From: an uncultured Gammaproteobacteria bacterium
GTDB lineage: Bacteria > Myxococcota_A > UBA796 > JAJRTE01
Length of the DNA stretch: 64,000 bases
Reading direction: 5' to 3'
Assembly: GCA_964418585.1 (NCBI GenBank)
Contig: CAYQMG010000137.1
Coordinates: 13,327-77,326, forward strand
Shown: positions 1,537 through 42,200 of the stretch, in pieces
Layout of the letters: every line of letters starts with the position of its first letter
Numbering within the stretch: position 1 is the stretch's first letter
Translations under genes and position numbers: made by a program
The notes under the pieces: generated by a model
Told to the model about the DNA's origin: nothing
Seen by the model: only the letters and a program-made list of their open reading frames with translations
The model's database searches: none

Positions 1537-1713
1537 CTCCTCACCATCGTTTCGGTCCTCGGGTCCTTCCGCCAGGCGGAAGGGCGGAGCAGGTCGTCGT
1601 GTCGCCCGAGCAGGCGTGTGGAACGTGATTGAAGCGCGTTGCAACGGGCGACCAGGATAGGAGCGCGGGCGCAAGGGTCCGTCCAGTATTAAACAGCTTG
1701 GAGAGACACAGAA

Positions 1714-3189
1714 ATGATTAGTTATAAACGTCGTGGGTGGTCCGGGGGCCGAACCCTGGTTTGGGTGGTGTGGCTCGTGTGGGCCGCTCCGGCCGGGTGC
1801 GGTCCGCAGGAGCGTGCGCTCCAGGTGGCCGATCGCGAGGGAGTGGGAGAGCGCGTCGAGGCCTCGAGTGGAGAGGTTGTCAGGAGCGGAGCAAGGGAGC
1901 GGGGATCCGAGGCGAGTGGGTCCGGCGGAGAGCATGAAGGGGAGGGCGGGGCGGGCCATGAGTCGGAATCGGGTCACGAATCGGGTCACGACCATGGGTC
2001 GGGGCACGGGTCGGAGGAGGCGTCGGATCTCGATCTCTCGGTGGACGCGCTGTTCGAGCTCGAGTGTGAGCACGGGTTGAAGACACATGAATGTGAGGAG
2101 TGTCGGTACGAGGTGGGCGTGGTGAAGGCGCCGCCGGAATTGTTCGAGCGTGGTCTGTTGAGTTCTGTTGTCCCCTCGAAGCGGCCGGTGGTGGTACCGC
2201 TGCGGGTGACCGGCGAGGTGCAGTTCGATGAGCGGCGGGTGATCCACGTGAGCACGCAGGCGGAGGGGATAGTGAGGCGCGTGCGTGTGACGTTGGGCGA
2301 CCGAGTGGAGAAGGGTCAACCCATGGTGGAGCTGGATTCGGTGCGCGTGGGAGATGCCGAGGCGGCCTACCTGGAGGCGCGGAGCATGCTGGAATTGGCG
2401 CGGCGGAATCTTTTGCGTGTCAAGGCGCTACGAGAGGAAGGGATTGCGTCTGAGAAGGAGTTCCTGGTGGCGGAACAGGCCGAGCAGGCGGCGAGGATTC
2501 GAGTCGACGCCGCCCTGGGGCGTCTGGTGCGACTGGGCATGCCGGAGGCGGAAGCCCGTGCGTTGACGCAGGCCAACGCAACCGGGCGGTTGGTGCTTCG
2601 GGCGCCCATGGGCGGGACTGTGCTGAGGCTTCACGCGGTTCCCGGGGAGATTGCCCAGCCCAACGAATCCCTGGCCACGGTTGGCAACAGTGAGACGGTT
2701 TGGGTGTGGGCGGACCTGTACCAGCGGGATCTGGCGCGTGTGGTGCGGGCCCAGGCGAGTGCGCCGATCGAGGCGCGGGTGATGGCGCGCGCCTATCCCG
2801 GGGAGCAGTTCCGGGGAGTGGTGGATTTCATTTCACCGGCCATGGACGAGGCGTCTCGGACCGCCCGGGTCCGGGTGAACGTACCGAATCCGGACGGGCG
2901 TTTGTTGGCCGGCATGTTCGTGGATGTGGACCTGTTCGTGCAGGATGACCGGGAGGCGATCGTGGTGCCCGAGGACGCGGTGTTGCAGGACGAGGGGCGG
3001 GAGTTCGTATTCGTGCACCACCGTGGGGCCTACTACGTGCGGCGGCCGGTCACGGTGGGTGCGGTGGTGGGAGACCTGGTGGAGATCACTCGAGGACTGG
3101 ACGGGACCGAGCGGGTGGTGGCCAACGGGGCGTTTCTCATGAAATCGGACGTGCTGCGCTCGAAGATGGGCGCGGGTTGCGCGGACTGA
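1714..3189 (+). CDS. czcB: Heavy-metal RND efflux periplasmic adaptor (CzcB/CusB family) with His-rich N-terminus
   Basis: Lipobox-like PAGC; membrane-fusion-protein motifs (LGDRVEKGQPMVELDS, LRAPMGGTV, ISPAMDEASRTARVRV, LLAGMFV); His/Glu-rich tract and CEH...HECEEC motif. Confidence 0.88.
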   Translation: MISYKRRGWSGGRTLVWVVWLVWAAPAGCGPQERALQVADREGVGERVEASSGEVVRSGARERGSEASGSGGEHEGEGGAGHESESGHESGHDHGSGHGSEEASDLDLSVDALFELECEHGLKTHECEECRYEVGVVKAPPELFERGLLSSVVPSKRPVVVPLRVTGEVQFDERRVIHVSTQAEGIVRRVRVTLGDRVEKGQPMVELDSVRVGDAEAAYLEARSMLELARRNLLRVKALREEGIASEKEFLVAEQAEQAARIRVDAALGRLVRLGMPEAEARALTQANATGRLVLRAPMGGTVLRLHAVPGEIAQPNESLATVGNSETVWVWADLYQRDLARVVRAQASAPIEARVMARAYPGEQFRGVVDFISPAMDEASRTARVRVNVPNPDGRLLAGMFVDVDLFVQDDREAIVVPEDAVLQDEGREFVFVHHRGAYYVRRPVTVGAVVGDLVEITRGLDGTERVVANGAFLMKSDVLRSKMGAGCAD

Positions 3190-3203
3190 GAGGGGAGGGG
3201 AAT

Positions 3204-6200
3204 GTGTTTGCCTTGCTTGAATTCCTGTTGCGTCGCCGGATGTTGCTGGGAATCGGAACCATCATACTCGTGGTGGCCGGTGCGATTTCCTGGATGCGGC
3301 TTCCGATCGATGCGTTTCCAGACGTCACCAATCAGCAAGTAATGATCCTGACCGAGGCCGAAGGACTCGGGCCTCTCGACGTGGAGCAGCAACTTACCTT
3401 CCCGGTCGAATGGGTGATGGGGGGACTGCCCAACGTCAAGATGGTGCGTTCTCTGTCCAAGACCGGGCTTTCCCAGGTGGTGGTCATTTTCGAGGACGAT
3501 GTGGATACCTACTTTGCCCGGCAACTCGTGTTCGAGCGCCTTCAGTTGGCCAAGGAGCAGTTGCCGGAGGGAGTGGAGCCCGAAATGGGTCCGATCAGCA
3601 CCGGGTTGGGGGAGATTTTCCAGTACACTTTGACCAGCGACCGGCACAGTCTGACCGAGTTGCGGACCTTGCAAGACTGGATGGTGGCTCCCCGACTTCG
3701 CATGCTACCAGGTGTCAACGAAGTGAACAGCATGGGAGGATTCGTTCGGCTCATTCAGGTGCGCGTAAGCCCGGAGCGGCTTCTGGAATACGGATTGACC
3801 CTCCCGGAAATCGTGGACTCGGTGGCCCGCAACAACGCCAACGCAGGCGGCAGTTTCATCACTCGAGGCTGGGAGCAGGAAAACGTGCGGAGCGTCGGCC
3901 TGTTTTCGACCATGGACGACATTCGCGACGTGGTGGTTCGAGCCGAAGATGGAACGCCGGTCTACCTGTCCGAGGTTGCCGACGTGGTCGAGAGTTCGAT
4001 GGCCCGGATGGGTGCGGTGACCCGCGATGGGCAAGGGGAAGCGGTGGCCGGGATGGTCATCATGCTCAAGGGCGAGAACTCCAAGGAGGTGGTGGAGCGG
4101 GTCAAGGCGGCTCTTCCATCCATTCAGAAAGCGTTGCCGGAAGGAGTCCAGATCGATGTCTACTATGACCGGACCGATCTGATTGAGGCCGTCATCGGCA
4201 CGGTCACCGGTGCGTTGCTCCAGGGCGGCATCTTCGTGGTCCTCGTCCTGTTCTTGCTCATCGGCAACCTACGTTCCGCCCTGGTCGTGGCGACCAGCCT
4301 GCCACTGACCGCGCTCGCCGCCTTCATCGCCATGGACGGTGCCGCGGTAACCGCCAACCTGATGAGCCTCGGGGGACTGGCCATCGCCATCGGAATGGTC
4401 GTGGACGGCTCAATTGTGGTGACCGAGAACGTGGTGCGTCACCTCAAGGAGAACCGGAACCGACCCTTGCTCGAGGTCGTGATCGGGGCCACTCGGGAGG
4501 TGGCCCGCCCGGTGCTTTTCTCCATTCTCATCATCGTGCTCGTCTTCGTGCCGCTGCTCACCCTGGGCGGCATGGAGGGCAAGATGTTTGCACCGCTGGC
4601 CAAGACCATGGTGTTCGCCATGCTCGGCTCCCTCCTGGTGGCCTTGACCATCGTGCCCATGATCCTCACCTTCTTGATGGGCAAAGGGGTGGGGACCCGG
4701 GAACCCAGGGCGTTCCTCTGGCTCCAGCGACTCTATCTGCGCGGCCTCCGAAAGGTGGTCGCCCGGCCCGGCATCACCGCAGCCGTCGCCGCCTTGCTCC
4801 TGGTTGGCACCATTGCCGCCATTCCACTGCTCGGGACCGAGTTCCTGCCACAACTCGACGAGGGCGCCATCGCCATCAACGCCGTGCGCCTCCCCAATGC
4901 ATCGGTGGAAGGTTCCCTGGAGGTCAGTTCGTTCATCGAAAAGGAATTGCTCTCCTTCCCCGAGGTGCAGACTGTGGTCAGCAAGACCGGACGGGCCGAA
5001 ATCTCCGAGGACCCGATGGGACCGGAGCAGAACGACATCCTCGTCATGCTTCATCCAGAGTCGGAATGGACCACCGGGCGAACCAAGGAAGACCTGGTCG
5101 CGGCCATGCAGGACCGCCTCGCCAGCATCCCGGGACTCCGGTTGTCTTTCAGTCAGCCCATTGCGCTCCGGGTCAACGAACTCATCTCAGGCGTGAAAAG
5201 CGACCTGGCGGTCAAGATCTTCGGCGAAGACCTGGATGTGCTCAAGAAAAACGCCGACCGTATCGCCGCTGTCCTCGGTGGCATCGAGGGCGCCGAAGAC
5301 ATCCGGGTGGAGCAAGTCACCGGGTTCACCCAACTCGACATCGTCCCGGACCGGCGGGCCATGGCCCGGTACAGACTCAACATGGCCGACATCAATGACG
5401 TGGTGGAGACCGCGGTGGGTGGAAAGATCGCCACCACCTTCATTGATGGCCAGATGAGATTCGGCGTCCAGGTTCGTTTCCCCGAAGACGCCCGCCGGGA
5501 CATCGCCACACTGGAACGTATCCTGCTCCCCACCCCTTCCGGCGCACGTGTACCCCTCGGCGAGGTGGCCTCGATCGTGCGCGTCGAGGGACCTGCGCAG
5601 GTGAGCCGGGAGAACAACATGCGGCGGGTGGTCGTGGAGGCGAACATTCGCGGACGGGATCTGGGCGGATTCGTCGCCGAGGCACAGGAAAAGTTGGCGG
5701 ACATCACCGAGGCTCTGCCCCCCGGCTACTGGATCGAGTATGGCGGCACATTCGAAAATCAGCAGCGGGCCATGGCCCGGCTCGCCGTGGTCGTCCCCCT
5801 CTCCGTCATGCTCGTCTTCTTCATGCTCGTCTCCGCCCTCGGCTCCTTGAAAACCGCTGGCCTCGTGCTCGTCAACCTCCCCTTCGCACTCGTCGGCGGA
5901 ATCGCATCCATGCTGCTCCTCGGTATCACCCTCAACGTCCCCTCCACCGTCGGATTCATCGCCCTGTTCGGCGTCGCCGTCCAGAATGGAACCGTGCTGG
6001 TCACCTTCATCAACCAGCTCCGCCAAAGGGGACGTTCGGTGGACAACGCCGTGATCGAGGCGTGTGGACTCCGCTTCCGCGCACTCCTCATGACCGCCGC
6101 CACCACCGTGCTCGGACTCCTCCCCATGGTCTACGCCGTCGGCCCCGGCGCCGAAGTCCAGAGACCCCTCGCCGTCGTGGTCATCGGAGGCCTGTTCACC

Positions 6201-6290
6201 GCCACCACCCTCACCCTCTTCGTCCTGCCGTCCTTCTACCGATGGATCGCTCCGGACCTCCCACAGATCCCGGCGGCAACCCGGTCCTGA
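3204..6290 (+). CDS. czcA: Heavy-metal efflux RND permease (CzcA/CusA family)
   Basis: About 1028 aa; LPIDAFPDVTN, GPISTGLGEI, AIGMVVDGSIVVTEN, PFALVGG, GAEVQRPLAVVVIGGL. GTG at 3204 follows a GGAGG RBS. Confidence 0.93.
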   Translation: MFALLEFLLRRRMLLGIGTIILVVAGAISWMRLPIDAFPDVTNQQVMILTEAEGLGPLDVEQQLTFPVEWVMGGLPNVKMVRSLSKTGLSQVVVIFEDDVDTYFARQLVFERLQLAKEQLPEGVEPEMGPISTGLGEIFQYTLTSDRHSLTELRTLQDWMVAPRLRMLPGVNEVNSMGGFVRLIQVRVSPERLLEYGLTLPEIVDSVARNNANAGGSFITRGWEQENVRSVGLFSTMDDIRDVVVRAEDGTPVYLSEVADVVESSMARMGAVTRDGQGEAVAGMVIMLKGENSKEVVERVKAALPSIQKALPEGVQIDVYYDRTDLIEAVIGTVTGALLQGGIFVVLVLFLLIGNLRSALVVATSLPLTALAAFIAMDGAAVTANLMSLGGLAIAIGMVVDGSIVVTENVVRHLKENRNRPLLEVVIGATREVARPVLFSILIIVLVFVPLLTLGGMEGKMFAPLAKTMVFAMLGSLLVALTIVPMILTFLMGKGVGTREPRAFLWLQRLYLRGLRKVVARPGITAAVAALLLVGTIAAIPLLGTEFLPQLDEGAIAINAVRLPNASVEGSLEVSSFIEKELLSFPEVQTVVSKTGRAEISEDPMGPEQNDILVMLHPESEWTTGRTKEDLVAAMQDRLASIPGLRLSFSQPIALRVNELISGVKSDLAVKIFGEDLDVLKKNADRIAAVLGGIEGAEDIRVEQVTGFTQLDIVPDRRAMARYRLNMADINDVVETAVGGKIATTFIDGQMRFGVQVRFPEDARRDIATLERILLPTPSGARVPLGEVASIVRVEGPAQVSRENNMRRVVVEANIRGRDLGGFVAEAQEKLADITEALPPGYWIEYGGTFENQQRAMARLAVVVPLSVMLVFFMLVSALGSLKTAGLVLVNLPFALVGGIASMLLLGITLNVPSTVGFIALFGVAVQNGTVLVTFINQLRQRGRSVDNAVIEACGLRFRALLMTAATTVLGLLPMVYAVGPGAEVQRPLAVVVIGGLFTATTLTLFVLPSFYRWIAPDLPQIPAATRS

Positions 6291-6551
6291 CCCGCAACAC
6301 AGGCCGTGCCGCAATACGCCACCCTTCACCTCCAGTCCTTCGGGGCGGGGTGAGAACCTTGCATCTCCTTGCCCGGCATCGGATATTCCATTCGGCCCTT
6401 GCGCATGGCAGATAAAGATGCTAAAGATCGAGAGGATTTGTCGAGCTTTCTCGAAAAATCACTGGTCCGCGTTCCCCCGGTCGCCGCGCACGCCCTTTCC
6501 CACGACACGACACCGGTCGAATGCCACCAGCGCAACCCAGCGTGGCATCTG

Positions 6552-7976
6552 ATGAAAACCCCTGTTAGCCTGTTCATGCCGGCCATGTTCGTTCCGTTGC
6601 TGGTCTGCACTGCGGCCTCGAGGCGCCTGGAGGGCGCCGAGGGGGCGAGTGAGGGGGAGCATGGGGTCACCTGGGCCACGGTTCAGGGGTCCTACCGTGT
6701 GAGGGCGGCGGTCGGGGGTGTCGAAGACGAAGGGGGGGATGGGGCATATCTACCGGCCGAGGCGGTGCCGGAACGCGATCATGATGTTCGGTTGCTGGCC
6801 GACGGAGGTTACACCGGGCCGGGTGAGCGCTTTACGTTCACGGCGTCTGTGGGGATCTGGTACGACGTGGACGGTGTGACTCCGGGTGCAGTGGCGACCT
6901 TTGCCTCCCTGTACGACACTCCGCAACCGTGGGCGAACGTGCTGTCACTCGTTGCCGGGTACCGTTTTGCGGGTCGGGCGGGCGAGGTTTGGGGCGGACG
7001 GCTGACCACGCCGATGGGGCTTCCAGGTACGTTCGATGGCGCGTCTGTTTCGGTGGCGCCTGGGTCTGGTCGGGTGAGGTTCGTGGCTTTTGGAGGGCGG
7101 AGCGTTCACTTTTTCGAGATGGACGCAGGATTGTTCGAGGACTGGCTGGGTTCGTTGGGAGCGGTCGTGGACCTGGGGGAGCGGGCGAGGCTGGAAATCG
7201 ACTACCGGTATACGCGGGAGGACGTTTCGTCGAGCGTGGACGATCGGGCGACGGTGGTCGATCATACGTACGGAGTCCAGCTTTTCGGGCGGTGTGGGCG
7301 GGGGGTGATGGGGCGGGTCTTTGTCCGGGGGCTCGGGGGGGCCGTGTCTCACGCCGGGGGGCGCGGCCGACTCGTGGCCTCGAGTGGCTTTTTGGGGGTG
7401 GACCTGTCCTTGGCGGCCCAGTTGGTGGCGCTCGACGAGGTCAATGAGCAACTGGATCCCTACTATGCGGTGCTGGGCCGGAGCAACCCGAACATTCGTT
7501 GGGCCATGGATGCCTGGCGCCGGGAGGATACGGGGAAAGGGGTCGTCGCGCTGCACGCCGGATGGAGTGGACGACGTCTGCTGTCCGGGGAAGAAGGGCC
7601 GTTCAACCGCAATCTGTCGCGGTTTTACCTGCTTGGAGACGGTGCAGACCTGTTTGGAAAAGGGGTGGGCCTCGGCGCGTCGTTGGCGCGACACCAGGCG
7701 GGGCGGTCGGACGCGGGCACAGAACAAGGGGTGACCACGGTGGGAGGGTGGCTGTCCTGGGCACGGTCGGGATGGCATGTTGAGGCCGGAAGCGATTACC
7801 AGTCGTTCAAGTACGACTATTTTCAGGACATCCAGGAACAGGAATCCGTCCGCACCTGGTTTCTCCGGCTTGGCTGGGACCCGCTTCCAGGGCTGCGGGT
7901 GAGTGCGCGCTACACGTTCGAACGGTCGGACCGGGATTATCATACGCTGTTCCTTGCCCTGACCAGACGTTTCTGA
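6552..7976 (+). CDS. Outer-membrane beta-barrel, probable porin of a porin-cytochrome complex
   Basis: Signal peptide, alternating aromatic/hydrophobic beta-strand pattern, C-terminal LFLALTRRF ending in Phe, directly upstream of multiheme cytochromes. Start codon uncertain. Confidence 0.7.
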   Translation: MKTPVSLFMPAMFVPLLVCTAASRRLEGAEGASEGEHGVTWATVQGSYRVRAAVGGVEDEGGDGAYLPAEAVPERDHDVRLLADGGYTGPGERFTFTASVGIWYDVDGVTPGAVATFASLYDTPQPWANVLSLVAGYRFAGRAGEVWGGRLTTPMGLPGTFDGASVSVAPGSGRVRFVAFGGRSVHFFEMDAGLFEDWLGSLGAVVDLGERARLEIDYRYTREDVSSSVDDRATVVDHTYGVQLFGRCGRGVMGRVFVRGLGGAVSHAGGRGRLVASSGFLGVDLSLAAQLVALDEVNEQLDPYYAVLGRSNPNIRWAMDAWRREDTGKGVVALHAGWSGRRLLSGEEGPFNRNLSRFYLLGDGADLFGKGVGLGASLARHQAGRSDAGTEQGVTTVGGWLSWARSGWHVEAGSDYQSFKYDYFQDIQEQESVRTWFLRLGWDPLPGLRVSARYTFERSDRDYHTLFLALTRRF

Positions 7977-7988
7977 CTGGAGGATCTC

Positions 7989-8819
7989 ATGCAACCATCC
8001 CCCTTGCGTGTGTTCGCCTTTCTTTTGACCGCCTTGCTGGTGATCGCCGTGGCGGTTCAGGCGGAAGAGCCCGAGGGTGGGGTTGTGTTTCATCACCGGG
8101 TGCACCTGGACGAGGGACTCGAGTGTCAGGACTGTCATGATGTCAGCCGGAATCGACCGGTGCTGGACCGGGAGATATGCACCGACTGTCACGACGAGAC
8201 GCCGACGGGTTTCCGACTGCCGCTCCGGGCGTTGAGGCTTCCGTTTCAGTTCTTGCACGTGAAGCACTCGAGGCGGTTTGATTGCCGGACGTGCCATCAG
8301 GGCACGGTGGCGGAGCAGCAGGCGGCAGGGCGGGTGATGGTGGAGTATGGTGCCTGCATGGCATGCCACCGGGCACGGGGGGCGCCGGTGGTGGGGACAC
8401 GTTGCGTGCAATGTCACGGGGAGGACCGCGCTCGAGTGCGGCCTGGTGATCACCGTGCAGGATGGCTGGAACAGCACGGGAAAGAGAGTCGGTGGCGGTC
8501 GGTGAAGGCGCACGGAAAAACGTGTGGTCAGTGTCACCGAACCGACACCTGCCGTTCTTGTCACCGGACGCGGCGTCCGGCGAGTCACACCGCGTTGTGG
8601 CGGAATCGTCTTCATGGGCTTGAAGCCGGGTGGGATCGTGATGGGTGCAAGACCTGTCACGAGACGGGCACGTGCGTGCAGTGCCACCGTACGACGCGGC
8701 CGCAAAACCACGCGGGGTCGTGGTTGTCTGTGCATCCGTTGGTGGCCGGTAGTGTTGGCAACGAAACCTGTCGAGTCTGTCACACCCCCGGTTTTTGCAC
8801 CGGGTGCCACGAGGGGTGA
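7989..8819 (+). CDS. Periplasmic multiheme cytochrome c (11 CxxCH), cytochrome c3-like N-terminus
   Basis: Signal peptide; 11 CxxCH counted (CQDCH, CTDCH, CRTCH, CMACH, CVQCH, CGQCH, CRSCH, CKTCH, CVQCH, CRVCH, CTGCH); VFHHRVH and FLHVKH c3-type distal-His motifs. Confidence 0.93.
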   Translation: MQPSPLRVFAFLLTALLVIAVAVQAEEPEGGVVFHHRVHLDEGLECQDCHDVSRNRPVLDREICTDCHDETPTGFRLPLRALRLPFQFLHVKHSRRFDCRTCHQGTVAEQQAAGRVMVEYGACMACHRARGAPVVGTRCVQCHGEDRARVRPGDHRAGWLEQHGKESRWRSVKAHGKTCGQCHRTDTCRSCHRTRRPASHTALWRNRLHGLEAGWDRDGCKTCHETGTCVQCHRTTRPQNHAGSWLSVHPLVAGSVGNETCRVCHTPGFCTGCHEG

Positions 8820-8830
8820 AGAGGATGTGC

Positions 8831-10039
8831 ATGGGGCTTGACGCCGCATGGCGAGGGGGATTGTTGGCGCTGGGCGCTGGTGCGGTGGCGCTCGGTCTTG
8901 GGATTGTGCTGACGGGTTGTCCCTACGATCCCTTGGCCGACGGGTTGCCCGGATCCATCACCTGTCACGATTGCCATGGGAGTGAGGCCGGCCCGGCGCC
9001 TCCCCGGTCGGTGGAAGGGGCGACCGAGACCACGGACATCGCAGTGGGCGCACACCAGAGTCATTTGTTCGGAGACGCCGACCAGCAAGCTGCCATGTGT
9101 GCAGAGTGCCACGTGGTGCCCGAGCGTGTGGACGACCCGGGTCACGTGGACGGGTATCCACCGGAAGTGACCTTCGGGGTCCTGGCGGGCGCTGGTGGGT
9201 TGAATCCTGAGTGGGATCGGGAAGCGGTGCGGTGTACCAACGTTTACTGTCACGGTGCCTCCCTGGGAGACGGTGGCGCCGTGCCGATCTGGACCGTTGT
9301 GGACGGCACCCAGGCCGCCTGCGGCACCTGTCACGGAACGCCTCCCGAGGTGACTTCGGGGGGCGCAGCACACCCTCCATATTCGAACTGCTGGACCTGC
9401 CATCCGGACACCGTGCTGGCAGACGGGGCTCTCGATCCGGAGAGTGGGACCCACATCGACGGTGTCGTCGAAATTGGAGACCTGGCATGCAATGCCTGTC
9501 ATGGAGACGATGAGAGTCCAGCGCCTCCTCCGGACACCTCGGGCAATACAGATACCTCGGCTCCAGGCGTCGGGGCACATCGCTCTCATCTCGGACCTTC
9601 CGACTGGCATGCGGAGGTGGCGTGCAACGAGTGCCACCTGGTGCCCGAGGCCATGCCCGACCCGGGTCACGTGGATTCCGCCCTGCCTGCCGAGGTCGTC
9701 TTCGGCGACCGTGCCACCGCTGGTGGGACTGCCGAGCCGGTCTACGACCCGAACGCGCATTCCTGCAATGGCATGTATTGCCACGGTTACACCCTGTTCG
9801 ATGGCGGTCCTCCCTCGCCTCCTGTGTGGACGGCCGTGGGGACCGGGGTGGCCGATTGTGGTACCTGTCACGGGCTTCCACCTGCGGCGCCGCACCTCCA
9901 GTTGGACACCTGCGACGTGTGCCACGGGTGTGTGGTGGATGACCAGCAGGCGATCGTGCCCGGGCGAGCCTACCTTCACATCAATGGTGAGGTCAATCTG
10001 GAGCCGGTGGACGCCTGTCCCGGACCACCCCAGCCGTGA
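8831..10039 (+). CDS. Lipoprotein multiheme cytochrome with CxxxxCH/CxxCH repeats (8 CxxCH + 2 Cx4CH)
   Basis: Lipobox LTGC; duplicated unit (GAHxSH..CxECH..P..PGHVD..EVxFG..CxxxYCHG..CGTCHG) typical of Geobacter-type CxxxxCH...CxxCH cytochromes. Confidence 0.88.
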   Translation: MGLDAAWRGGLLALGAGAVALGLGIVLTGCPYDPLADGLPGSITCHDCHGSEAGPAPPRSVEGATETTDIAVGAHQSHLFGDADQQAAMCAECHVVPERVDDPGHVDGYPPEVTFGVLAGAGGLNPEWDREAVRCTNVYCHGASLGDGGAVPIWTVVDGTQAACGTCHGTPPEVTSGGAAHPPYSNCWTCHPDTVLADGALDPESGTHIDGVVEIGDLACNACHGDDESPAPPPDTSGNTDTSAPGVGAHRSHLGPSDWHAEVACNECHLVPEAMPDPGHVDSALPAEVVFGDRATAGGTAEPVYDPNAHSCNGMYCHGYTLFDGGPPSPPVWTAVGTGVADCGTCHGLPPAAPHLQLDTCDVCHGCVVDDQQAIVPGRAYLHINGEVNLEPVDACPGPPQP

Positions 10040-34522: not shown

Positions 34523-34556
34523 ATGTTGCAATGTCGCAACGTTGTTTCTGAAACAT
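34523..34556. promoter_or_regulatory. Candidate upstream activating sequences (paired palindromes)
   Basis: GTTGC-N6-GCAAC (34525-34540) and TGTTTC-T-GAAACA (34543-34555), about 210-240 bp upstream of a sigma54 promoter. Confidence 0.55.
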
Positions 34557-34764: not shown

Positions 34765-34780
34765 TGGCCCGGAGGTTGCA
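34765..34780 (+). promoter_or_regulatory. sigma54 promoter TGGCCCGGAGGTTGCA
   Basis: GG-N10-GC with TTGCA, upstream of the two receiver genes. Confidence 0.6.
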
Positions 34781-34928
34781 GGCAATGGGCGGCGGAGCCG
34801 GTGGCCGGCGGGGGGAAGTTGCCGGACTCGGGGTGCCGGGTTTGGGGGAGGGGACGGGGCGGGCTGGGTGGTGCATGGGGGAGGGGGGTCCAGTCGTTCG
34901 AGCAAGCGGGGGAGGGCGAGGCGTTTTC

Positions 34929-35468
34929 ATGGCAAGGGCGAAGGTGAAGACGGTCCTGGTCGTGGACGACGAGCCGCACCTCAGGCACTATCTTCGGATG
35001 GTGCTGGAGGATGCCGGGTACTGCGTGTTGACAGCCGCAGACGGGCTCGAGGGATTGAATCTGGCTCGGGCGCACCGGCCGGATTTGGTGTCGGTGGATC
35101 TGGCCATGCCGCGGAAGACGGGGTACCGGCTGCTCGTGGAGATGCGGCGTGAGGAGGGGTTGAAGGACATTCCGGTGGTGATCGTGACAGCGCATGCCCG
35201 CGATTCGGTGGGGGTACGTGCGCTCACGGAGCTTCGAGCGGCGGGCTACGATCTGTCGCGGAGCGACTACCTGGAGAAGCCGGTTTCGGCCTCCACCTAT
35301 TTGGCGGCGGTGGCGCGTGCACTTGGCGTGGAGGGGCGTGAGGATTCGCGTTCGGTGGGGGAGTTGCGGGAGTTGTTGAGGAACCGCATCGAGGACGCGG
35401 GGCCTGAAGCGCTGAAGCGGGCGCTGGAGGCCCTGGCGAGGAGTTTGCCGGGGGAGGAGGAGCGGTGA
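34929..35468 (+). CDS. Response regulator receiver protein with short helical C-terminal extension
   Basis: VLVVDDE, PDLVSVDLAMP, IVTAH, LEKP. Confidence 0.9.
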   Translation: MARAKVKTVLVVDDEPHLRHYLRMVLEDAGYCVLTAADGLEGLNLARAHRPDLVSVDLAMPRKTGYRLLVEMRREEGLKDIPVVIVTAHARDSVGVRALTELRAAGYDLSRSDYLEKPVSASTYLAAVARALGVEGREDSRSVGELRELLRNRIEDAGPEALKRALEALARSLPGEEER

Positions 35469-35546
35469 TCGAAGGGGGGAGGTTTGTCGGCCGTGGGTCG
35501 GAGCTGAATCCGAGAGACGATCAACTTGATGAAAGGAGAGGAGAAG

Positions 35547-35954
35547 ATGACGGCGAGTGCCGGGAAGAAGAGGATACTCATTGTGGAGGATGAGCCGCAC
35601 GTGGCGATGTATCTGGAGACGTTGCTTCAGGATCACGGCTACGAAACGGAGATAGCGGCGAACGGGCGTGAGGCGTGGGAGCGAGCCCGGAAGAAACGGC
35701 CCGACCTGGTGTCTCTCGACATCACGATGCCGGAAGAGTCGGGGATCCGGTTCTATCGGCGCCTGAAGGAAGACCCTGACCTGGCCGACGTCCCGGTCAT
35801 TGTGGTGACCGCGGTGACCGGCTACGGTGGGGACCCGGAACCATTCAAGAACTTCCTGGACACTCGTCGACAAGTTCCACCGCCTGAGGGCTTTTTCTCG
35901 AAGCCCATCGATCGGGATGCTTTCCTGGAAGCAGTGGCCCGGCAACTCGCCTGA
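35547..35954 (+). CDS. Single-domain response regulator (CheY/DivK-like)
   Basis: ILIVEDE, PDLVSLDITMP, VVTAV, FSKP. Confidence 0.92.
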   Translation: MTASAGKKRILIVEDEPHVAMYLETLLQDHGYETEIAANGREAWERARKKRPDLVSLDITMPEESGIRFYRRLKEDPDLADVPVIVVTAVTGYGGDPEPFKNFLDTRRQVPPPEGFFSKPIDRDAFLEAVARQLA

Positions 35955-36165
35955 ATGGCCGGTCTGGGAAAGGCGCGTTCCAGCTTGTTCCCTGCCTCGC
36001 AAGATGCTACCGTTCGCATGAGTCCGTTTGGCGCTCGTTGCGGTTCCTGTCCAGGCCGCGGGGCCGAGGTGTATGATACGGGCTCGAGGCGGTGGCCGCG
36101 GCGCGGAGAAGGGTCGGCGTGCGGGGTCGCGTGCCGGGGGGGGCGTCGTTTCGAGGAGGATGCGC

Positions 36166-37749
36166 ATGACTGCCGGTGGTCGGAAATACATCCTGGCGGT
36201 GGACCTCGGCACCTCGGGGCCCAAGGTGGCGTTGTTCGATGCGGGTGGGACGATGGTGACTTCGTGTTTCGTCCCCACACCGACCATTTTGCTCCCAGGA
36301 GGCGGTGCGGAGCAACGGCCGGACGACTGGTGGCAGGCCATCGTTCGGGGCACCCGTGAGGTGGTATCGGCGAGCGGGGTGTCTCCTGCGGAGGTGGTGG
36401 CGATCGGGTGTTCGGCGCAGTGGTCCGGCACGGTCGCGGTGGACCGGGCGGGTCGGCCGTTGATGAACGCGATCATCTGGATGGATTCTCGAGGTGCGCC
36501 GTACTTGCGCGAGATCGGGGAGGGGGCGTTCAAGATCGAGGGGTATGCGTTGCGCAAGCTGGTCTACTGGCTGCGGCTTACCGGAGGATTGCCGGGGCCG
36601 TCTGGCAAGGACGCCATTGCCCACATGTTGTTCATCAAGCATGAGCGACCGGAGGTGTACGAGGCCACGGACAAGTTTCTCGAGCCATTGGACTACCTGA
36701 ACTTGCGCATGACAGGAAAGGCCGCGGCCTCTTACCATTCCATCTCGCTTGCCTGGGTCACGGACAACCGGCAGGTCGGCTCGGTGCACTACGACGATCG
36801 TCTCATTGCCATGACGACCATTGACCGGGACAAGTTTCCTGACCTGCTGCCGGTGGATGCCGTGCTCGGGCCGCTCACTGCCGAGGCTGCCGGGGAGCTG
36901 GGGCTGACGGAGGCGACGCAGGTGGTGATGGGTGCGCCGGACCTTCATGCTGCAGCGGTGGGCTCGGGTGCGGTGGACGACTATGATGGGCACCTGTACA
37001 TCGGTACCTCCTCGTGGATCACTTGCCATGTGCCGTTCAAGAAAGTGGATGTGATCCGCAACATTGCCAGCCTGCCATCGGCCATCCCGGGCCGGTATTT
37101 CGTGGCCGACGAGCAGGAGACCTCCGGGGCCTGTCTGAATTTCCTGCGAGACAACGTGTTCTTCCCTTCTGACGAGTTGGAGACCGCGGCGCCGGATGAC
37201 GTGTTCCAACGTTTTGACCGGATGGCGGCTCGAGTTCCGCCCGGGTCGGGCAAGCTCATCTTTCTCCCATGGCTTTACGGGGAGCGGACACCGGTGGAGG
37301 ATCGGTTTGTTCGGGGTGGTTTCGTGAATCTTTCCCTGGATGCCACTCGAGCGCATATGGTCCGGGCGGTGTTGGAAGGTGTGGGATACAATCTCCGGTG
37401 GCTGTGCGGTGCCGTGGAGCACTTCATTGGGAGGCCGTTCGCCCGTTTGAACATCATCGGAGGCGGTGCGAAGTCGGACGTGTGGTGCCAGATTCTGGCG
37501 GACATCCTGGATCGAGAGATTCGGCAGGTGCGTGATCCGATCATGGCCAATGTGCGGGGAGCGGCCTTTCTGGCCGCGCATGCCATGGGTTTTCTCGACT
37601 TCTCTGACATTCCCGGGCGCGTGTCCATTGCGCGAACGTTCCGACCCAACCCGGAGAATCGGGCGATCTACGATGAACTCTACGAACAATTCGGCCGGTT
37701 GTATCGAGCCAACAGGCGCATCTTTGCTCGATTGAACCGAACCCAGTGA
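36166..37749 (+). CDS. FGGY-family carbohydrate kinase (xylulokinase-like)
   Basis: [59 protein letters not shown]; GAGGAGG RBS. Confidence 0.93.
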
Positions 37750-37768
37750 GCCTTCATGGAGCAGGACG

Positions 37769-39277
37769 ATGGACCCAATCGCGTTTTCGACCAGGTATCT
37801 TTCCCGGGTGGACCCTCGAGTGCTGCGTTTTCTGGAGCGGCAGCTACGGAAGTTGCCGCCTGTGCGGCGTATGATTGAAGCGGAATACGACAAGCTTCTG
37901 GGCGACATCGAGGAGGAGGTGAAGCCCTACCGCAAGGAGTATGGGTCCCTGGATCGGCTTCCCAAGGAGGGGCGGAGCCGAGAGGACATCCTGGCGGAGA
38001 TGGAAGCGATTCGGGACCGGGAATCCGCGCGCTGGCGGGACGGGTTGGTGTCGGGCGCGGTCTATCACGGGGACGAGGGGCACGTGGATTTCCTCAATCG
38101 GGTTTATGCGATCAACTCGCAGGCCAATCCGCTTCACTCGGACCTGTGGCCGAGCACCACGCGGTACGATGCCGAGGTGGTCGCCATGACTGCTCACATG
38201 CTTGGGGCGGATCGGACAGGCGACGAGATCTGCGGCACGGTCACCTCGGGCGGGACCGAGAGTATCCTGTTGGCCATGAAGAGCTACCGGGATCGCGCTC
38301 GAGACACTCGAGGCATACGGCGGCCGGAGATGGTGGCGCCGGTGACTGCGCATGCCGCGTTTGACAAGGCGTGCCAGTATTTCAACATCGAGAAGGTGAC
38401 CGTGCCGGTGGATGCGAGTGGGCGTGCGGTGGTGTCGGAGGTCAAGGCGGCGATCTCGAGGAACACGGTGGTGGTGGTGGGGTCGGCCCCCTCTTTTCCT
38501 CACGGAGCCATCGATCCCATCGAGGAGATGTCTGCCCTGGCCGCCGAGCGGGGGATCGGATTCCACACGGACGCCTGTCTCGGCGGTTTCGTGCTTCCCT
38601 GGGCCGAAAAACTGGGCTACGACGTGCCTCCATTCGACTTTCGTCTTCCCGGCGTCACCTCCATCTCGGTGGACACGCACAAGTTCGGGTATGCCGCCAA
38701 GGGGACATCGGTCGTGCTGTATCGTGGACGGGAGTTGAGGCATTATCAGTACTTCACGACCACGGATTGGCCGGGCGGGATCTACTTCTCTCCCACGTTT
38801 GCAGGCAGTCGTCCTGGTGCGTTGAGTGCTGCGGCCTGGGCGGCGATGGTGAGCATGGGAGAGAAAGGGTATCTCGATGCCACGAAAAAGATCCTGGAGA
38901 CGGCGGCCCGGTTTCGAGAGGCGGTGGAGGCGATCCCGGAACTCGAGCTGGTCGGCAATCCACTTTGGGTGATCGCGTTCCGGTCACCATCTCTGGACAT
39001 CTACCAGGTGATGCAGAACATGACGGATCGAGGTTGGAACCTCAACGGGCTCCACAAGCCTCCGTGCGTGCACATCTGCATCACCCTTCGTCACACCCAG
39101 CCGGGTGTGGCCGATCGGTTCGCCCAGGACCTTCAGGCTGCAGTCGCGGAGGCGAAGCAGCGTCCTGGAGTTCGGGAAGGGATGGCGCCGGTCTACGGGA
39201 TGGCAGCCACCATGCCGCTTCGGGGCCTGGTTGGTGAGATGTTGAAGCGGTACATGGACCTGCTCTACAAGGTGTGA
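37769..39277 (+). CDS. spl: Sphingosine-1-phosphate lyase-like PLP-dependent enzyme
   Basis: [59 protein letters not shown] (PLP Lys), FAGSRPG; N-terminal helical extension typical of S1P lyases. Confidence 0.8.
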
Positions 39278-42200
39278 CCCCCCATTCGGGCCTCGAGGCC
39301 GCGCACTTCGTCCGGGCGGTTCAGGGCTTCCCACAGGCGCATGGCCAGGCCGAACGCGCGAGCGGCGCGGATTTTCTCGCCTGCTGCCTCGCACCGCTCC
39401 CCGGCGCCCTGGATCATCCACGCATCATCTTCCTCCACCACGCCCAGGGTCGCCAGGTGCTGGTCAGCGCGCTCGAGGTGGTGGTCGAACGCTTCCCAGT
39501 CCTTGCGCTCTGCGTGGCAGCGGGCAAGGGCCGCGTGGAAGGCACCGAGGACCCGACGGTGGCCTTGCTTCGTCAGCCGTTCTGGCACGCCTGAGAGCAG
39601 TTCCAGTGCCTCGTCGAACCGGCCCTGCCGGATGCGGACCGTGGCCAGGTTGAGGGTGGGAACCGCCCACATGCCGGCCTCGGTGTCGCGTGCCTTTTCT
39701 GTGGCCTTGCGATAGGCCCGGGCGGCGCGTTCCAGGTCTCCGGTGTACCGTGCGATCTCCCCTGCCTCGTTCAGGAAGAAGACCAGGGCGTGCTTGCCGC
39801 CGATCCGGTCGATCAAGGTTTTGGCCTGCCGGAGGTAGGAGAGGGCCTTGTCCGGATCCCGGTCGTCGTACAGGGCCAGGCGTCCCAGACCGCGGAGTGC
39901 ATCCGAGACTCCGGCCAGGTGGCCGTGCTTGCGGCCCAGGGTCATGGCTTTCTGGAAGTAGTCGCGTGCCTGTTCGGTGGCGCCGGTCTGCTGCGCCACG
40001 TGTCCGAGGAACACCAGGCAGGACACCTGGCGATAGGAGTCCCCTTCCTTTTCGTACAGTTCCAGCGCTCGCTCATAGAGTTCCACGGTGCGTCGGGTCA
40101 GGCCCTGTTCCCAGGCCACGTTGGCCAGTCCACGAAGGCAGTGGGCCGTTTCCCTCCCCTCGTTCCGCAACACCAGTTGGGGGAGGGCCGCCTGGTACAG
40201 GGCCTCCGCAGTCACGTAGTCTCCACGGTATCGCGCCAGGTCCCCCTTGAGACGCATCGCGCTCGCGGCAAGACGGTTCCACTCCCCACGCCGCGCAGCC
40301 TCCTCGATCCGGCGGATGTACTGCGCCACCGCTTCCGGCCGCTCCTGGTCCAGGTCCATTTGGGCCAGCAGCAGCCACCCGGTACCAAGTCGGACATCGA
40401 GGCCTTCGCCGCCAAGCGCACGAATCGCCTCCTCTCGCCTTCGAATGAGTACTCGAGCTGCGTGATAGTCACTGCTCTCCCTTCTTTGCTCGGCAGCCCG
40501 TAGGAGTGGCTGGAGACAGCGCTCGAATTCTCCTGCAGCAAAGTAGTGGCGTCCGATCCGCTCTGATATCCCTGGTTCCGACTCCCCGTAGCGCTTGCGC
40601 AGCATGTTGGCGCAGGCAAGGTGATGGCTTCTGGCCCGTCCCCCATCCCGGGCTGAGCGCTCCAGGCTTTCGCGCAGCATGGCATGAACGAAGGACCAGA
40701 AAATCTGTTGGGGCGACCGACCCGCCCGTTTGCCCAGACTGATACGGACCAGTCGATGGGCAAGGAGGTTGTCCAGTTGACCTTCTGGAAAGGTCAGTCC
40801 CGCTTCTGCACAGGCCGCACGCCACTCCTCGAGCAACACGGTCTGGCCCAGGGCTGCGGCCAGCTCCAGCGCGTGGTGTGCAGTCGGTGGTTGGCCCTGC
40901 ATGGCGCGCTGAATCCGGGCGGTCCACACCTGATGGATGTCGTCCGGGAGGGTGAGGGGGACGCCCTGCTTGAGCACGAATCCCTTGTCTCCGGGGACCA
41001 GGACGCCGCGCTGGACCCAGTCGCCGATGAGCTGCACGGCGAACATGGGATTTCCGGCTGTGCGCGCTTCCACCCGGCTTGCGAGGCGCGGCTCGAGGCC
41101 CAGGAGTTCGCGAACAAGCCGGGCATGGTCGGCCGGAGAAAGGGGCGGAACGAAAATGCCTCGAGCGTCGGGGCTTCCCATGAGTTTGTCGAGGAGTCCG
41201 GTCTCGTATGGTCGTTCCGCCAGCGCGTCGTCCTGGGCGGTGATGAGGAACAGGACGCGGGGCAGGGGGTCCTGGAGATGGTTCAAGACGTGGTAGACGA
41301 AGCGAAGCGAGTCCCCGCCCCATTGCGCGTCGTCCAGCCACACGATGGCAGGACGCTCCTCGGTCAGTTTCTCCAGGTAGCGGCCGATGACCACGTAGCG
41401 TTCGGCCGGATTCCGGAATCGTACCGGCCGCTCACGCTCCTCCTGGTCGTCGGACCGGACGAGCAGGGCGGGTTTCATGATTTCCGCCAGAGCTTGCCAC
41501 TCGTAAGAGTCGGTCACTCCCAGGTCGCCAAGCAGGCGCTCGAGGCGTTGCTCGGCCTCGCTCAGAGACAGGCCCACGCAGCGGGTGAATCGTGCCAGCA
41601 TGGCCGGTAGGCCGTGAGCCGGGCTCTGGTCCGGTCCGTGCGTGGCGGTGAGGACTCGAGCGCCACCCACGTCCAGTGCCCGTTCCGTCATCCACTCGGC
41701 CAGGCGGCTCTTGCCGGTCCCCGCAGCGCCGTGGATGAGCACCAGCCGAGGCTTCCGCTCCTCGTGCACCTCGTGCAGCGCCTGCCAGATGAGATCCCGT
41801 TCCCGCTCCCGATCCACGAAGGGGATGGTTCGGATTCCGTACAGGCCGAGCCCGGCTCCTTCGAGCAAGATGGTGTGTTCGGCCGGTGTTTCGGTCCGCC
41901 AGGATTCAGGCAGGGGAGGGGTGACCACCGGAGGGAGATCATAGTCGGATGCGACGCTGCTCGAGGTGGCTTCGCCGGCGACCAGCGTGATGTTCTCCAG
42001 GGCCTCCTCGGTGTCCACTCCCAGGCGCTGAGGACGGAATTCGTCCATCGGCGCATCGAGCGTCGCCGGGGCCGGTCGCTCGACACGGTTCCCCTCCAGG
42101 TCGCTTGAAATGGGGGGAGGTCCCGATTCACTCGTCCTGTCCGGGTCGCCTCGCTCCTGATCGAACCAGAGGGATTGCGGTCGAGGCCCGGGTTCGACCG

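What the first reader, a model, noticed from the sequence alone, without database searches (positions are those of the whole stretch)
1700..39300. Sawtooth G/C strand skew that resets at transcription-unit boundaries
On the + strand, composition drifts from G-rich to C-rich and then jumps back to G-rich near 6500, 13030, 17600, 25900 and 34550. Hand counts on selected 60-nt lines: 6181 C29/G9 vs 7261 G28/C11 (tandem junction); 11821 C26/G12 vs 13201 G26/C13 (convergent); 17281 C24/G12 vs 17761 G30/C13 (divergent); 33961 C24/G14 vs 34861 G35/C9 (tandem). So coding strands are G-rich at 5' and C-rich at 3' in both orientations. The effect is partly synonymous: the repeated NPGA motif reads AACCCGGGGGCG near 20315 but AACCCCGGCGCC near 21756. 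A chromosome arm normally keeps one skew sign. Possible causes are a transcription-linked mutation or repair gradient, mRNA-level selection, or frequent local replication initiation. The lines were hand-picked, so the pattern needs quantifying.
Basis: seen in the sequence. Interest (0 to 1): 0.62.

Follow-up and report, generated by a model that had tools for sequence, protein, structure and literature searches.

The report
Operon-scale sawtooth of strand composition
In this uncultured hydrothermal-vent myxobacterium, silent DNA positions run from G/T-rich to C/A-rich along each operon and reset at the next promoter region. The pattern is strong and genome-wide, a sister species lacks it, other relatives show it reversed, and I found no description of it for bacteria.

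Summary
All eight hand counts are exact. The six domains between 1.6 and 39.3 kb each fall in + strand skew at fourfold-degenerate sites, by up to +0.6 to -0.6 (z = -2.0 to -9.6).

The pattern is genome-wide. There are 275 upward against 88 downward skew jumps of 0.3 or more, and 86 against 8 at 0.4 or more. It is mainly synonymous, and resampling codons removes most of it. An independent sequencing run reproduces the sequence.

Jumps sit at intergenic regions that contain an AT-rich tract. On both sides, the strand running away from the region is G+T-rich, and this decays over 1-3 kb. The skew covers untranslated transcript ends but not spacer DNA. It does not depend on codon family or neighbouring base, and it shifts Asp/Glu, Asn/Lys and Ile/Met usage.

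A same-genus genome lacks the pattern. Three relatives from two lineages show the inverse polarity, and 15 other genomes sampled singly are flat. rho, mfd, rnhA, UDG, mutS and mutL are all present.

My best reading (about 40%) is a mutational footprint of single-strand exposure during transcription that starts at these regions in both directions. Rivals are RNA-level selection linked to Rho, another border-anchored DNA process, and phase-specific transcription-coupled repair. The mechanism is unresolved.

The parts
1573..6595 (+). Skew domain 1. HlyD-type adaptor (1765-3189) and AcrB-type pump (3204-6290) operon. Coding-strand fourfold skew runs +0.41/+0.45, then 0.04, -0.11, -0.26, -0.26, -0.57.
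   Evidence: z = -9.6, fitted +0.59 to -0.61.
6291..6551 (.). Intergenic switch region. It is C-rich just after the AcrB stop codon and has an AT-rich tract at about 6405-6460. The next gene most likely starts at ATG 6552, which opens a signal peptide. The cumulative-skew minimum is at 6595.
   Evidence: (jump 0.45 at 6624).
6552..13005 (+). Skew domain 2. Operon of multihaem cytochrome genes (7989-8819, 8825-10039, 10205-11659), preceded by a gene with no Pfam match and followed by an FGE-sulfatase/MopE-motif gene (11716-13005). Fourfold skew runs from +0.17..+0.59 down to -0.32.
   Evidence: z = -6.9.
13006..13161 (.). Switch at a convergent junction with a 58-nt gap. Both 3' ends are C-rich on their own coding strand. 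This is unusual, because short convergent gaps genome-wide show no jump.
   Evidence: minimum at 13161.
13064..17320 (-). Skew domain 3. Three minus-strand genes: PI-PLC-like, M28 peptidase and PEGA-domain kinase. Coding-strand skew runs from +0.13 at the 5' end (17287) to -0.52 near 13978.
   Evidence: z = -4.0 on the + strand.
17321..17713 (.). Divergent intergenic region with sigma-70-like hexamer pairs on both strands (+ 17573-17601, - 17442-17414). The switch point is at 17547.
17714..25741 (+). Skew domain 4. Two small genes plus a 1988-aa repeat protein (19775-25741). Skew is +0.33 at the start of the large gene, -0.30 by 21 kb, then plateaus near -0.2. NPGA motif codons drift from G-ending to C-ending.
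   Evidence: z = -5.0.
25742..26044 (.). Switch region ahead of the glycyl-radical enzyme gene. The cumulative-skew minimum is at 26044.
25917..34486 (+). Skew domain 5. Glycyl-radical enzyme, its activase, a PNPOx-like gene, a 743-aa gene and a sigma-54 activator. Fourfold skew runs from +0.66 to -0.75.
   Evidence: z = -9.6.
34487..34928 (.). Intergenic switch with the largest jump in the window (0.56). It has an AT-rich tract at 34487-34600, followed by a 300-nt G-run-rich stretch (34620-34920) on the + strand that may be a leader or an N-terminal extension.
   Evidence: minimum at 34590.
34929..39277 (+). Skew domain 6. Response regulator, small gene, FGGY kinase and PLP decarboxylase. Skew stays positive, from +0.50 to +0.24.
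   Evidence: z = -2.0.
49844..52550 (-). In this two-gene minus-strand unit, coding skew runs +0.39, +0.23, +0.03, -0.01, -0.14.
   Evidence: z = -3.9.

Best explanation
The sawtooth is a real, genome-wide and species-specific strand asymmetry at the nucleotide level, on the G+T versus C+A axis. It is anchored at intergenic regions that contain an AT-rich (promoter-like) tract. On both sides of such a region, the strand that runs 5'->3' away from it is enriched in G and T at silent sites, in untranslated transcript ends, and even at conservative amino-acid choices. The enrichment fades over about 1-3 kb. Between two such regions the two opposed gradients add up to a near-linear fall through zero. 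Because most neighbouring units in the window point the same way, this reads as 'G-rich 5' end, C-rich 3' end'.

The most likely cause is inferred, not shown. I read it as a mutational footprint of repeated single-strand exposure of the non-template strand (transcription bubbles, R-loops) by transcription that starts at these regions in both directions. Sense transcription runs into the downstream operon. Divergent or antisense transcription is untranslated and therefore R-loop-prone, and it runs into the upstream one. Deamination-type changes (C>T, A>G) on the exposed strand, combined with the genome's general pull towards GC, would give G>C and T>A at constant GC content.
For: - The effect is synonymous and at the nucleotide level. 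Fourfold skew swings by about +-0.5 while positions 1 and 2 barely move. Resampling codons cuts jumps of 0.3 or more from 275/88 to 47/12.
- Composition is mirror-symmetric. G-rich segments have G .56, C .22, A .08, T .14. C-rich segments have G .23, C .59, A .11, T .08.
- The shift in G/(G+C) is uniform across all 8 fourfold codon families (log-odds 1.06-1.40) and all next bases (1.20-1.36). Twofold sites move the same way: C/(C+T) .82 to .65 and G/(A+G) .64 to .78.
- Amino-acid pairs that differ by third-position G or C shift (E up and D down, K up and N down, M up and I down), as do V up and T down.
- The axis matches this genome's contig-scale, replication-type skew. The slope of AT4 on GC4 is -0.71 at contig scale and about -0.54 locally.
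- Jumps lie in intergenic regions, and the profile around 275 jumps is symmetric, decaying to zero by about 3 kb.
- Jump size tracks an AT-rich tract in the intergenic region (r = -0.27). Gap length drops out of a joint fit.
- The skew begins 100-150 nt before start codons, continues about 200 nt past stop codons, and is near zero in spacer DNA.
- Operon-internal junctions are continuous (r about 0.5).
- The gradient is the same on leading-type and lagging-type contigs.
- The pattern is lineage-specific and only weakly shared with orthologues in the congener (r 0.33, slope 0.22), as expected for a changeable mutational regime.
- Published support for one step: in E. coli, untranslated and antisense transcripts are the substrates for R-loops, whose displaced strand has chemically reactive cytosines (PMC5909445).
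Against: - No RNA data exist for this organism. Bidirectional initiation and antisense transcripts are assumed, not seen.
- The highly expressed tuf, rpoBC and ribosomal-protein cluster shows no large skew, with most genes within about +-0.2 (rpoB -0.01, rpoC -0.09, tuf +0.04). The effect therefore does not simply scale with transcription.
- Three relatives (G002, G008, G020) have the inverse polarity. Plain non-template deamination does not predict this.
- Long convergent intergenic regions also show upward jumps. This needs unannotated promoters or another cause.
- At 6460-6545 the stretch between the AT-rich tract and the start codon is C-rich, not G-rich.
- rho, mfd, RNase HI, two UDG genes, mutS and mutL are all present, so no repair loss explains why this species differs.
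- Transcription units were inferred with my own crude gene caller.
Confidence: 0.4

Rival explanations
1. Selection on transcript composition linked to Rho-dependent termination and polarity. G-rich, C-poor 5' parts would protect nascent RNA from premature Rho loading, where loss would be most costly. The 3' parts and 3' untranslated regions are rich in C and A, so they cannot fold and suit Rho, and they would promote termination before the next unit.
For: - Rho is present.
- Intrinsic-terminator-like hairpins are no commoner than in shuffled sequence in the window (14 vs 13.0, and 8 vs 11.4).
- C>G continues about 200 nt past stop codons. Even genes with average skew have C>G in the first 100 nt after the stop.
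- The skew is confined to transcribed DNA.
- At matched unit length, 3' ends before long intergenic regions are more C-rich, including convergent cases (-0.198 vs -0.005).
- A cost of premature termination that falls with distance would give a gradient.
Against: - The C-rich zone extends 1-3 kb into translated sequence, where Rho cannot load.
- The composition is an almost exact strand mirror image.
- The upstream flank of divergent promoters behaves exactly like the 3' end of an upstream tandem operon.
- Short convergent junctions show no C-rich 3' ends.
- The congener, whose Rho has the same open-frame length and a near-identical score, lacks the pattern. Relatives with Rho show the inverse polarity.
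Confidence: 0.2
2. A DNA process other than transcription that is anchored at the borders. AT-rich intergenic regions would act as frequent start sites of DNA unwinding or DNA synthesis (R-loop-primed or restart-type replication, or long repair tracts) moving outwards both ways. This would be a miniature analogue of the human skew N-domains around replication origins.
For: - The shape matches N-domains: abrupt upward jumps and a near-linear fall between them. Across 170 domains (median 6.9 kb) skew runs from +0.32 to about -0.28, the same for genes on either strand.
- Jump size tracks an AT-rich tract.
- Long convergent gaps show jumps too.
- The G+T/C+A signature is the same as this genome's contig-scale skew.
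- There is no simple scaling with expression.
Against: - Thousands of initiation sites in a bacterial chromosome have no precedent.
- RNase HI, which suppresses R-loop-primed replication, is present.
- The skew stops at transcript ends and is near zero in spacer DNA. This fits transcripts better than forks.
- The inverse polarity in relatives would need border-anchored termination instead of initiation.
Confidence: 0.13
3. Sense transcription alone, with two opposing transcription-coupled biases that dominate at different distances from the start. An example would be single-strand damage of the non-template strand near the 5' end against repair- or polymerase-linked asymmetry further on. This is what was proposed for the opposite 5'/3' skews of fungal genes. 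A change in their balance could flip the polarity between species.
For: - There is a sign change along units, including units that end at short convergent gaps (+0.08 to -0.005/-0.055).
- Genome-wide, skew declines with distance from gene start, from +0.05 to -0.12 over 4 kb.
- Both polarities exist among close relatives.
- Fungi show the same kind of reversal at fourfold sites and in untranslated regions (PMC3315797).
Against: - At matched unit length, C-richness at the 3' end depends on what lies downstream.
- Skew is continuous across short convergent junctions, where coding-strand skews correlate at -0.37. Both points implicate the neighbouring region rather than distance from the unit's own start alone.
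- Mfd is present in this genome but gave no full-length hit in the flat congener. That gives no simple repair correlate.
Confidence: 0.15
4. An artefact or a trivial cause: chimeric assembly, contamination, amino-acid composition, or chance in hand-picked lines.
For: The genome is a 211-contig metagenome-assembled genome.
Against: - Contigs from an independent 2025 study match with 0-1 differences per ~250 nt.
- The excess variance is unimodal across 78 contigs (0.08-0.33, median 0.20).
- Contamination is 1.3%.
- Codon-resampling and within-gene permutation controls were run.
- Domain trends reach z values down to -9.6.
Confidence: 0.02

Closest known systems
Human skew N-domains (Touchon 2005 and Huvet 2007, cited from my own knowledge; Audit et al. 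2009, PMC2764438, abstract read)
   Same: Both have abrupt upward skew jumps at borders, a near-linear decline between them, and combined GC and TA asymmetry. In both, borders sit in open or AT-rich, promoter-rich DNA.
   Different: N-domains are about 1 Mb and are attributed to replication origins. Here domains are 4-12 kb in a bacterium, borders are individual intergenic regions, and the skew stops at transcript ends.
[quoted passage not shown]
   Same: The skew sign reverses along the transcription unit. It is visible at fourfold sites, extends into untranslated regions, and alters amino-acid usage. The cause is unresolved, with both mutational and adaptive proposals.
   Different: Fungi are C-biased at the 5' end and G-biased at the 3' end. 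This genome is the opposite, while its relatives G002, G008 and G020 have the fungal polarity. Here the unit is the operon, and the pattern differs between congeneric species.
[quoted passage not shown] 2021, PMC8256042)
   Same: Both show intense, correlated GC and TA skews on the G+T versus C+A axis, strongest at third codon positions, with opposite signs within 1 kb. Val is enriched and Thr depleted on the G+T side. The cause is unknown.
   Different: GRINS are defined as duplicated regions (>500 bp, >80% identity) and are tied to gene conversion, mostly in polyketide synthases. Here the skew covers unrelated genes of different families genome-wide, and it is ordered by transcription-unit borders.
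Transcription-associated strand asymmetry in bacteria (Francino & Ochman; Beletskii & Bhagwat; cited from my own knowledge)
   Same: The non-template strand is enriched in G and T near 5' ends. The axis is the one expected from deamination of exposed single strands.
   Different: The known effect is weak, keeps one sign along the transcript, and grows with expression. Here the amplitude reaches +-0.5, the sign reverses within the unit, and the most highly expressed cluster shows little of it.
Replication-associated GC/keto skew and the single-strand-time gradient of vertebrate mitochondrial DNA (cited from my own knowledge)
   Same: The G+T-rich strand signature is the same. In mitochondria there is a linear gradient with time spent single-stranded.
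   Different: Chromosomal replication skew keeps one sign per replichore. This genome has that component too (contig-level +-0.05 to 0.19), and the sawtooth is superimposed on it independently of orientation.

Membership tests
Replication-associated chromosome-arm GC skew | One skew sign per replichore, switching only at origin and terminus | tested here: not met
   The sign switches every 4-12 kb. There are 275 upward jumps of 0.3 or more in 7 Mb. The unit-level gradient is identical on contigs of either overall sign.
Replication-associated chromosome-arm GC skew | G and T enriched together on one strand | tested here: met
   The local slope of AT4 on GC4 is about -0.54. The contig-level slope is -0.71, r -0.76.
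Bacterial transcription-associated strand asymmetry | Uniform sign along the transcript (non-template strand G/T-rich) | tested here: not met
   The sign reverses within operons, for example +0.45 to -0.57 across HlyD-AcrB.
Bacterial transcription-associated strand asymmetry | Strength increases with expression level | tested here: inconclusive
   Only one proxy was available. Most genes in the tuf / rpoBC / ribosomal-protein cluster lie within about +-0.2. No RNA data exist.
Skew N-domains | Abrupt upward jumps with a linear decline between borders | tested here: met
   Upward jumps outnumber downward 86 to 8 at 0.4 or more. The rescaled profile of 170 domains runs +0.32, +0.24, +0.12, +0.07, +0.02, +0.02, -0.05, -0.11, -0.21, -0.26.
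Skew N-domains | Borders are replication origins | not testable with these tools
   This needs replication profiling. I could only show that border strength tracks an AT-rich tract.
Fungal opposite 5'/3' gene skews | Skew of opposite sign at the two ends of the unit, seen at fourfold sites and extending into untranslated regions | tested here: met
Fungal opposite 5'/3' gene skews | Polarity: coding strand C-biased at the 5' end and G-biased at the 3' end | tested here: not met
   G000 runs G to C: unit 5' ends +0.069 and 3' ends -0.054 on average, and far more in the window. Relatives G002, G008 and G020 do have the fungal polarity.
GRINS | Mean |GC| and |TA| skews above 0.15, correlated with each other, strongest at third codon positions | tested here: met
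   (gene-level correlation of GC4 and AT4 skews -0.51).
GRINS | Duplicated region over 500 bp with over 80% identity to another copy (gene conversion) | tested here: not met
   No repeat search of the coding regions was run. The skewed units in the window are unrelated genes of different Pfam families, 18.8% of all 1-kb windows exceed 0.3, and only 24 short matches occur among 324 high-jump intergenic regions.
Rho-dependent terminator C>G regions | C-rich, G-poor untranslated RNA stretch of roughly 100 nt ahead of the termination point | tested here: inconclusive
   C>G persists for about 200 nt after stop codons and Rho is present. However, the C-rich zone extends kilobases into coding sequence, and termination sites are unknown.

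The most novel reading that the evidence does not exclude
Some bacterial lineages switch into a state in which a strand-specific mutational process, anchored at promoter-bearing intergenic regions, rewrites silent sites over kilobases. That process has not been described. Its polarity can differ between related species. One concrete version is a self-reinforcing loop: a G-rich nascent RNA escapes Rho and forms stable R-loops, these expose more single-stranded DNA, and that makes the strand still more G-rich. A congener without the pattern, plus relatives with the inverse pattern, would then form a natural comparative system for finding the responsible factor.
Probability: 0.25. Interest if true: 0.85.

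Novelty: new variant of a known kind. Interest (0 to 1): 0.68.

Why it matters
Strand composition is widely used to read replication and transcription history from sequence alone. In bacteria it is assumed to be smooth at the scale of a chromosome arm. Here a process tied to operon borders dominates silent-site composition: about 19% of 1-kb windows exceed |0.3|. It also changes protein composition and differs between congeneric species.

If it is mutational, it records where DNA is single-stranded in an uncultured organism. That would make transcription-associated mutagenesis, R-loops and antisense transcription in bacteria testable by comparative genomics.

If it is selected, it reveals a composition code for transcription termination or polarity.

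There are also practical consequences. Codon-usage-based gene finders trim or miss genes in the skewed zones, as mine did. Skew-based origin prediction and gene-transfer detection would be misled.

Tried and rejected
- **G-quadruplex motifs.** Density is 0.20 per kb, inside the range of relatives (0.02-0.53), so G-runs are not the driver.
- **A shared repeat or palindrome at the borders.** Only 24 short matches occur among 324 high-jump intergenic regions.
- **Thermophily.** The proteome-based growth-temperature estimate is 46 C. G002 gives 45 C and the flat G019 gives 65 C, so temperature is not distinctive.
- **Loss of repair or R-loop genes.** rho, mfd, RNase HI, two UDG genes, mutS and mutL are all present.
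- **Intergenic length as the determinant.** Length looked important but drops out once the AT-rich tract is included.
- **Replication orientation.** The gradient is the same on both contig classes.
- **Enzyme-like sequence context or tRNA-specific codon selection.** The shift is uniform across codon families and neighbouring bases.
- **tRNA gene flanks.** They show only an average-sized jump.
- **RNA-seq evidence.** No RNA runs are available.
- **Rfam and tRNA scans of the window.** Neither found anything.
- **Anticorrelation of orthologue skews with the inverse-polarity relative.** None was found (r = 0.01).
- **Literature.** Searches for a bacterial precedent found only GRINS, the fungal gene skews and the human N-domains.

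Full report
**Observation**

The window is C137:13327-77326 of a 7.0-Mb, 211-contig, 63.8% GC genome. Earlier notes of this scan call the organism an uncultured Myxococcota. Its best-holding run is a hydrothermal-vent metagenome.

The 1-kb skew profile shows the sawtooth directly: +0.30 falling to -0.16, a jump to +0.24 falling to -0.20, and a jump to +0.34 at 34.5 kb.

At fourfold-degenerate sites the coding-strand skew runs as follows:
- HlyD-AcrB operon: +0.41/+0.45 to -0.57.
- Cytochrome operon: up to +0.59, down to -0.32.
- Glycyl-radical-enzyme unit: +0.66 to -0.75.
- Minus-strand block 17287 to 13064: +0.13 to -0.52.

Trend tests per domain give z = -9.6, -6.9, -4.0, -5.0, -9.6 and -2.0. 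Switch points lie at 1573, 6595, 13161, 17547, 26044 and 34590.

**Amino acids and chance do not explain it**

Genome-wide, fourfold skew falls from +0.05 to about -0.12 over 4 kb from gene starts, while codon positions 1 and 2 do not fall.

I replaced every codon by a synonymous one drawn from genome-wide usage. This lowers the SD of 1-kb skew from 0.108 to 0.070 and cuts jumps of 0.3 or more from 275 up / 88 down to 47 / 12. Permuting synonymous codons within genes keeps 176 / 53, so much of the signal is differences between neighbouring genes along a unit.

18.8% of 1-kb windows have |GC4 skew| above 0.3, against 0.12% expected from binomial sampling. Increments of skew are positively skewed (+0.52 to +0.59). 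This statistic is unchanged by reverse complementation.

**Not an artefact**

- Contigs from the source run cover the stretch with essentially no differences. An independent 2025 study yields short contigs with 0-1 differences each.
- The excess between-gene SD of GC4 skew is unimodal across 78 contigs (median 0.20, range 0.08-0.33).
- Contamination is 1.3%.

**Anatomy**

- Upward jumps of 0.4 or more fall at 31 divergent, 29 tandem and 4 convergent junctions, and 21 fall inside called genes.
- Operon-internal junctions are continuous (correlation about 0.5, mean change -0.04). Junctions with long gaps reset by about +0.15.
- Around 275 jumps the fourfold profile is symmetric beyond the 1-kb selection window: -0.21, -0.13, -0.09, -0.06 on the left and +0.20, +0.12, +0.09, +0.02 on the right. 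The AT skew is mirrored. The profile is the same whether the left-hand genes point towards or away from the jump.
- Between consecutive jumps (170 domains, median 6.9 kb) the + strand skew falls almost linearly from +0.32 to about -0.28.
- The skew begins 100-150 nt before start codons, continues about 200 nt after stop codons, and is near zero in spacer DNA further out. It therefore covers transcribed DNA, coding or not.
- Jump size first appeared to depend on gap length for tandem, divergent and even convergent junctions. In a joint fit the minimum GC of a 40-nt window in the gap carries the effect (r = -0.27) and length drops out.
- At matched unit length, 3' ends are more C-rich when the downstream gap is long, whatever its orientation.
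- The unit-level gradient is the same on contigs of either overall skew sign.

**Signature**

- G-rich and C-rich segments are almost exact strand mirror images: G .56 / C .22 / A .08 / T .14 against G .23 / C .59 / A .11 / T .08, with GC4 nearly constant at .78-.81.
- The shift in G/(G+C) is uniform across the eight fourfold families and the four following bases. Twofold sites move in the same direction.
- Glu, Lys, Met, Val and Arg rise in G-rich segments, and Asp, Asn, Thr, Cys and Tyr fall.
- The pressure therefore acts on nucleotides rather than on codons or tRNAs.
- The axis is the same as this genome's contig-scale, replication-type skew.

**Relatives**

I sampled 35-465 kb from each of 19 class relatives, plus a pooled 47 kb from three more.
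- The same-genus genome G001 has only 66-75% nucleotide identity in the two matched operons and 73% median amino-acid identity. It is flat: SD 0.062, one jump of 0.3 or more in 399 kb where about 16 would be expected, and within-gene slope z values with SD 1.12. Its HlyD-AcrB orthologue runs only from +0.2 to -0.1.
- Orthologue skews correlate weakly between G000 and G001 (r 0.33, slope 0.22, n 160).
- G002 (same order, another family) is as heterogeneous as G000 but inverted. It has 15 downward against 4 upward jumps, increment skewness -0.67, unit 5' ends at -0.13 and 3' ends at +0.06, and downward steps at both divergent and convergent junctions. Its orthologues do not correlate with G000 (r 0.01).
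- G008 and G020, one genus of a further family, lean the same inverted way.
- The other 15 genomes sampled singly are flat; the pooled sample is too small to call.

**Gene content**

rho, mfd, RNase HI, two UDG-family genes, mutS and mutL are all present in G000. Only G001 lacks a full-length mfd match, and G001 is the flat genome. No simple repair-gene loss explains the pattern.

**Mechanism**

Shown here:
- The asymmetry is at the nucleotide level and is strand-symmetric.
- It is anchored at AT-rich intergenic regions and limited to transcribed DNA.
- It is independent of replication orientation.
- It changes on the timescale of species.

Inferred: it is mutational and comes from single-strand exposure of the strand that runs away from these regions. 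Downstream this would be sense transcription. Upstream it would be divergent or antisense transcription. The mirror composition, the context independence, the spill-over into amino acids and the kilobase extent fit mutation better than selection for a Rho loading site.

The selection rival keeps real support. C>G continues past stop codons, hairpin terminators are scarce, and 3' ends before long gaps are C-rich even at convergent junctions. An RNA poor in G and U is also the least able to fold.

A replication-like or repair-synthesis process starting at the AT-rich tracts would give the same shape. I cannot exclude it.

Three results weigh against the simplest transcription model:
- The inverse polarity in relatives.
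- The lack of a large skew in the tuf/rpoBC/ribosomal-protein cluster.
- The C-rich stretch just upstream of the 6552 start codon.

These keep my confidence near 0.4.

**Comparison with what is known**

The shape is that of human skew N-domains (PMC2764438). The sign reversal along a unit is that of fungal genes (PMC3315797), with opposite polarity in this genome. [quoted passage not shown]

Four literature searches found no bacterial description of an operon-anchored, sign-reversing gradient. Earlier unchecked notes of this scan report similar sawtooth patterns, of either polarity, in other uncultured lineages.

**Caveats**

- Genes and transcription units come from my own codon-statistics caller. 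It trims or misses some genes in skewed zones, for example the cytochrome gene at 7989-8819.
- No transcription data exist for this organism.
- The growth-temperature estimate and the promoter and terminator scans are crude.

Noticed in passing
window 7989-8819 (+): A 276-aa multihaem cytochrome gene (Pfam Cytochrome_C7, Cytochrom_c3_2) was missed by both versions of my codon-statistics gene caller. Strong local skew and unusual composition can defeat composition-based gene finding in this genome.
   Followed up: partly
window 34620-34920 (+): A 300-nt stretch packed with G-runs (for example GGGGGAGGGGACGGGGCGGGCTGGG) lies between the sigma-54 activator gene and the response-regulator gene. 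It sits inside a 308-aa ORF (34542-35468) whose receiver domain starts only at residue 138, so it is either a leader or a Gly/Arg/Glu-rich N-terminal extension. Genome-wide G-quadruplex motif density is not unusual.
   Followed up: partly
window about 12180-12360 (+), inside gene 11716-13005: A ~90-nt segment coding the MopE-type metal-binding motif (PF11617) matches about 80 places in the congener G001 and about 10 in G002 at 70-82% identity. It is a widely dispersed, repeated protein module in this clade.
   Followed up: no
G001 (same genus), whole genome: G001 gave no full-length mfd match (best hit 122 bits, probably a related helicase), whereas G000 and nine other relatives have one. This could be a true loss or a gap in a 94%-complete genome. 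G001 is the genome without the sawtooth.
   Followed up: no
G000 contigs of 40 kb or more: Contig-scale fourfold skew reaches +-0.19, but genes show no preference for the G-rich (presumed leading) strand. There are 738 against 734 units, and the correlation of contig skew with the fraction of genes on the + strand is 0.01.
   Followed up: partly
G000 C118:65830-67298, C16:16492-17365, C166:38534-38995, C93:10265-10857, C6:84678-85100: A small family of related intergenic sequences (37-97 nt matches at 84-93% identity) occurs among the intergenic regions with the strongest skew jumps. Its nature is unknown.
   Followed up: no
G000 genome-wide, first 100 nt after stop codons: Even genes with average skew have C>G (-0.16, -0.13) in the first 100 nt downstream of the stop codon when the downstream gap is long. 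Hairpin-plus-T terminators are not enriched in the window. This hints at mainly Rho-type termination.
   Followed up: partly
window 13006-13161: The convergent junction has only a 58-nt gap yet shows a clear upward switch, with both 3' ends C-rich. Short convergent gaps genome-wide show none (mean -0.045).
   Followed up: no
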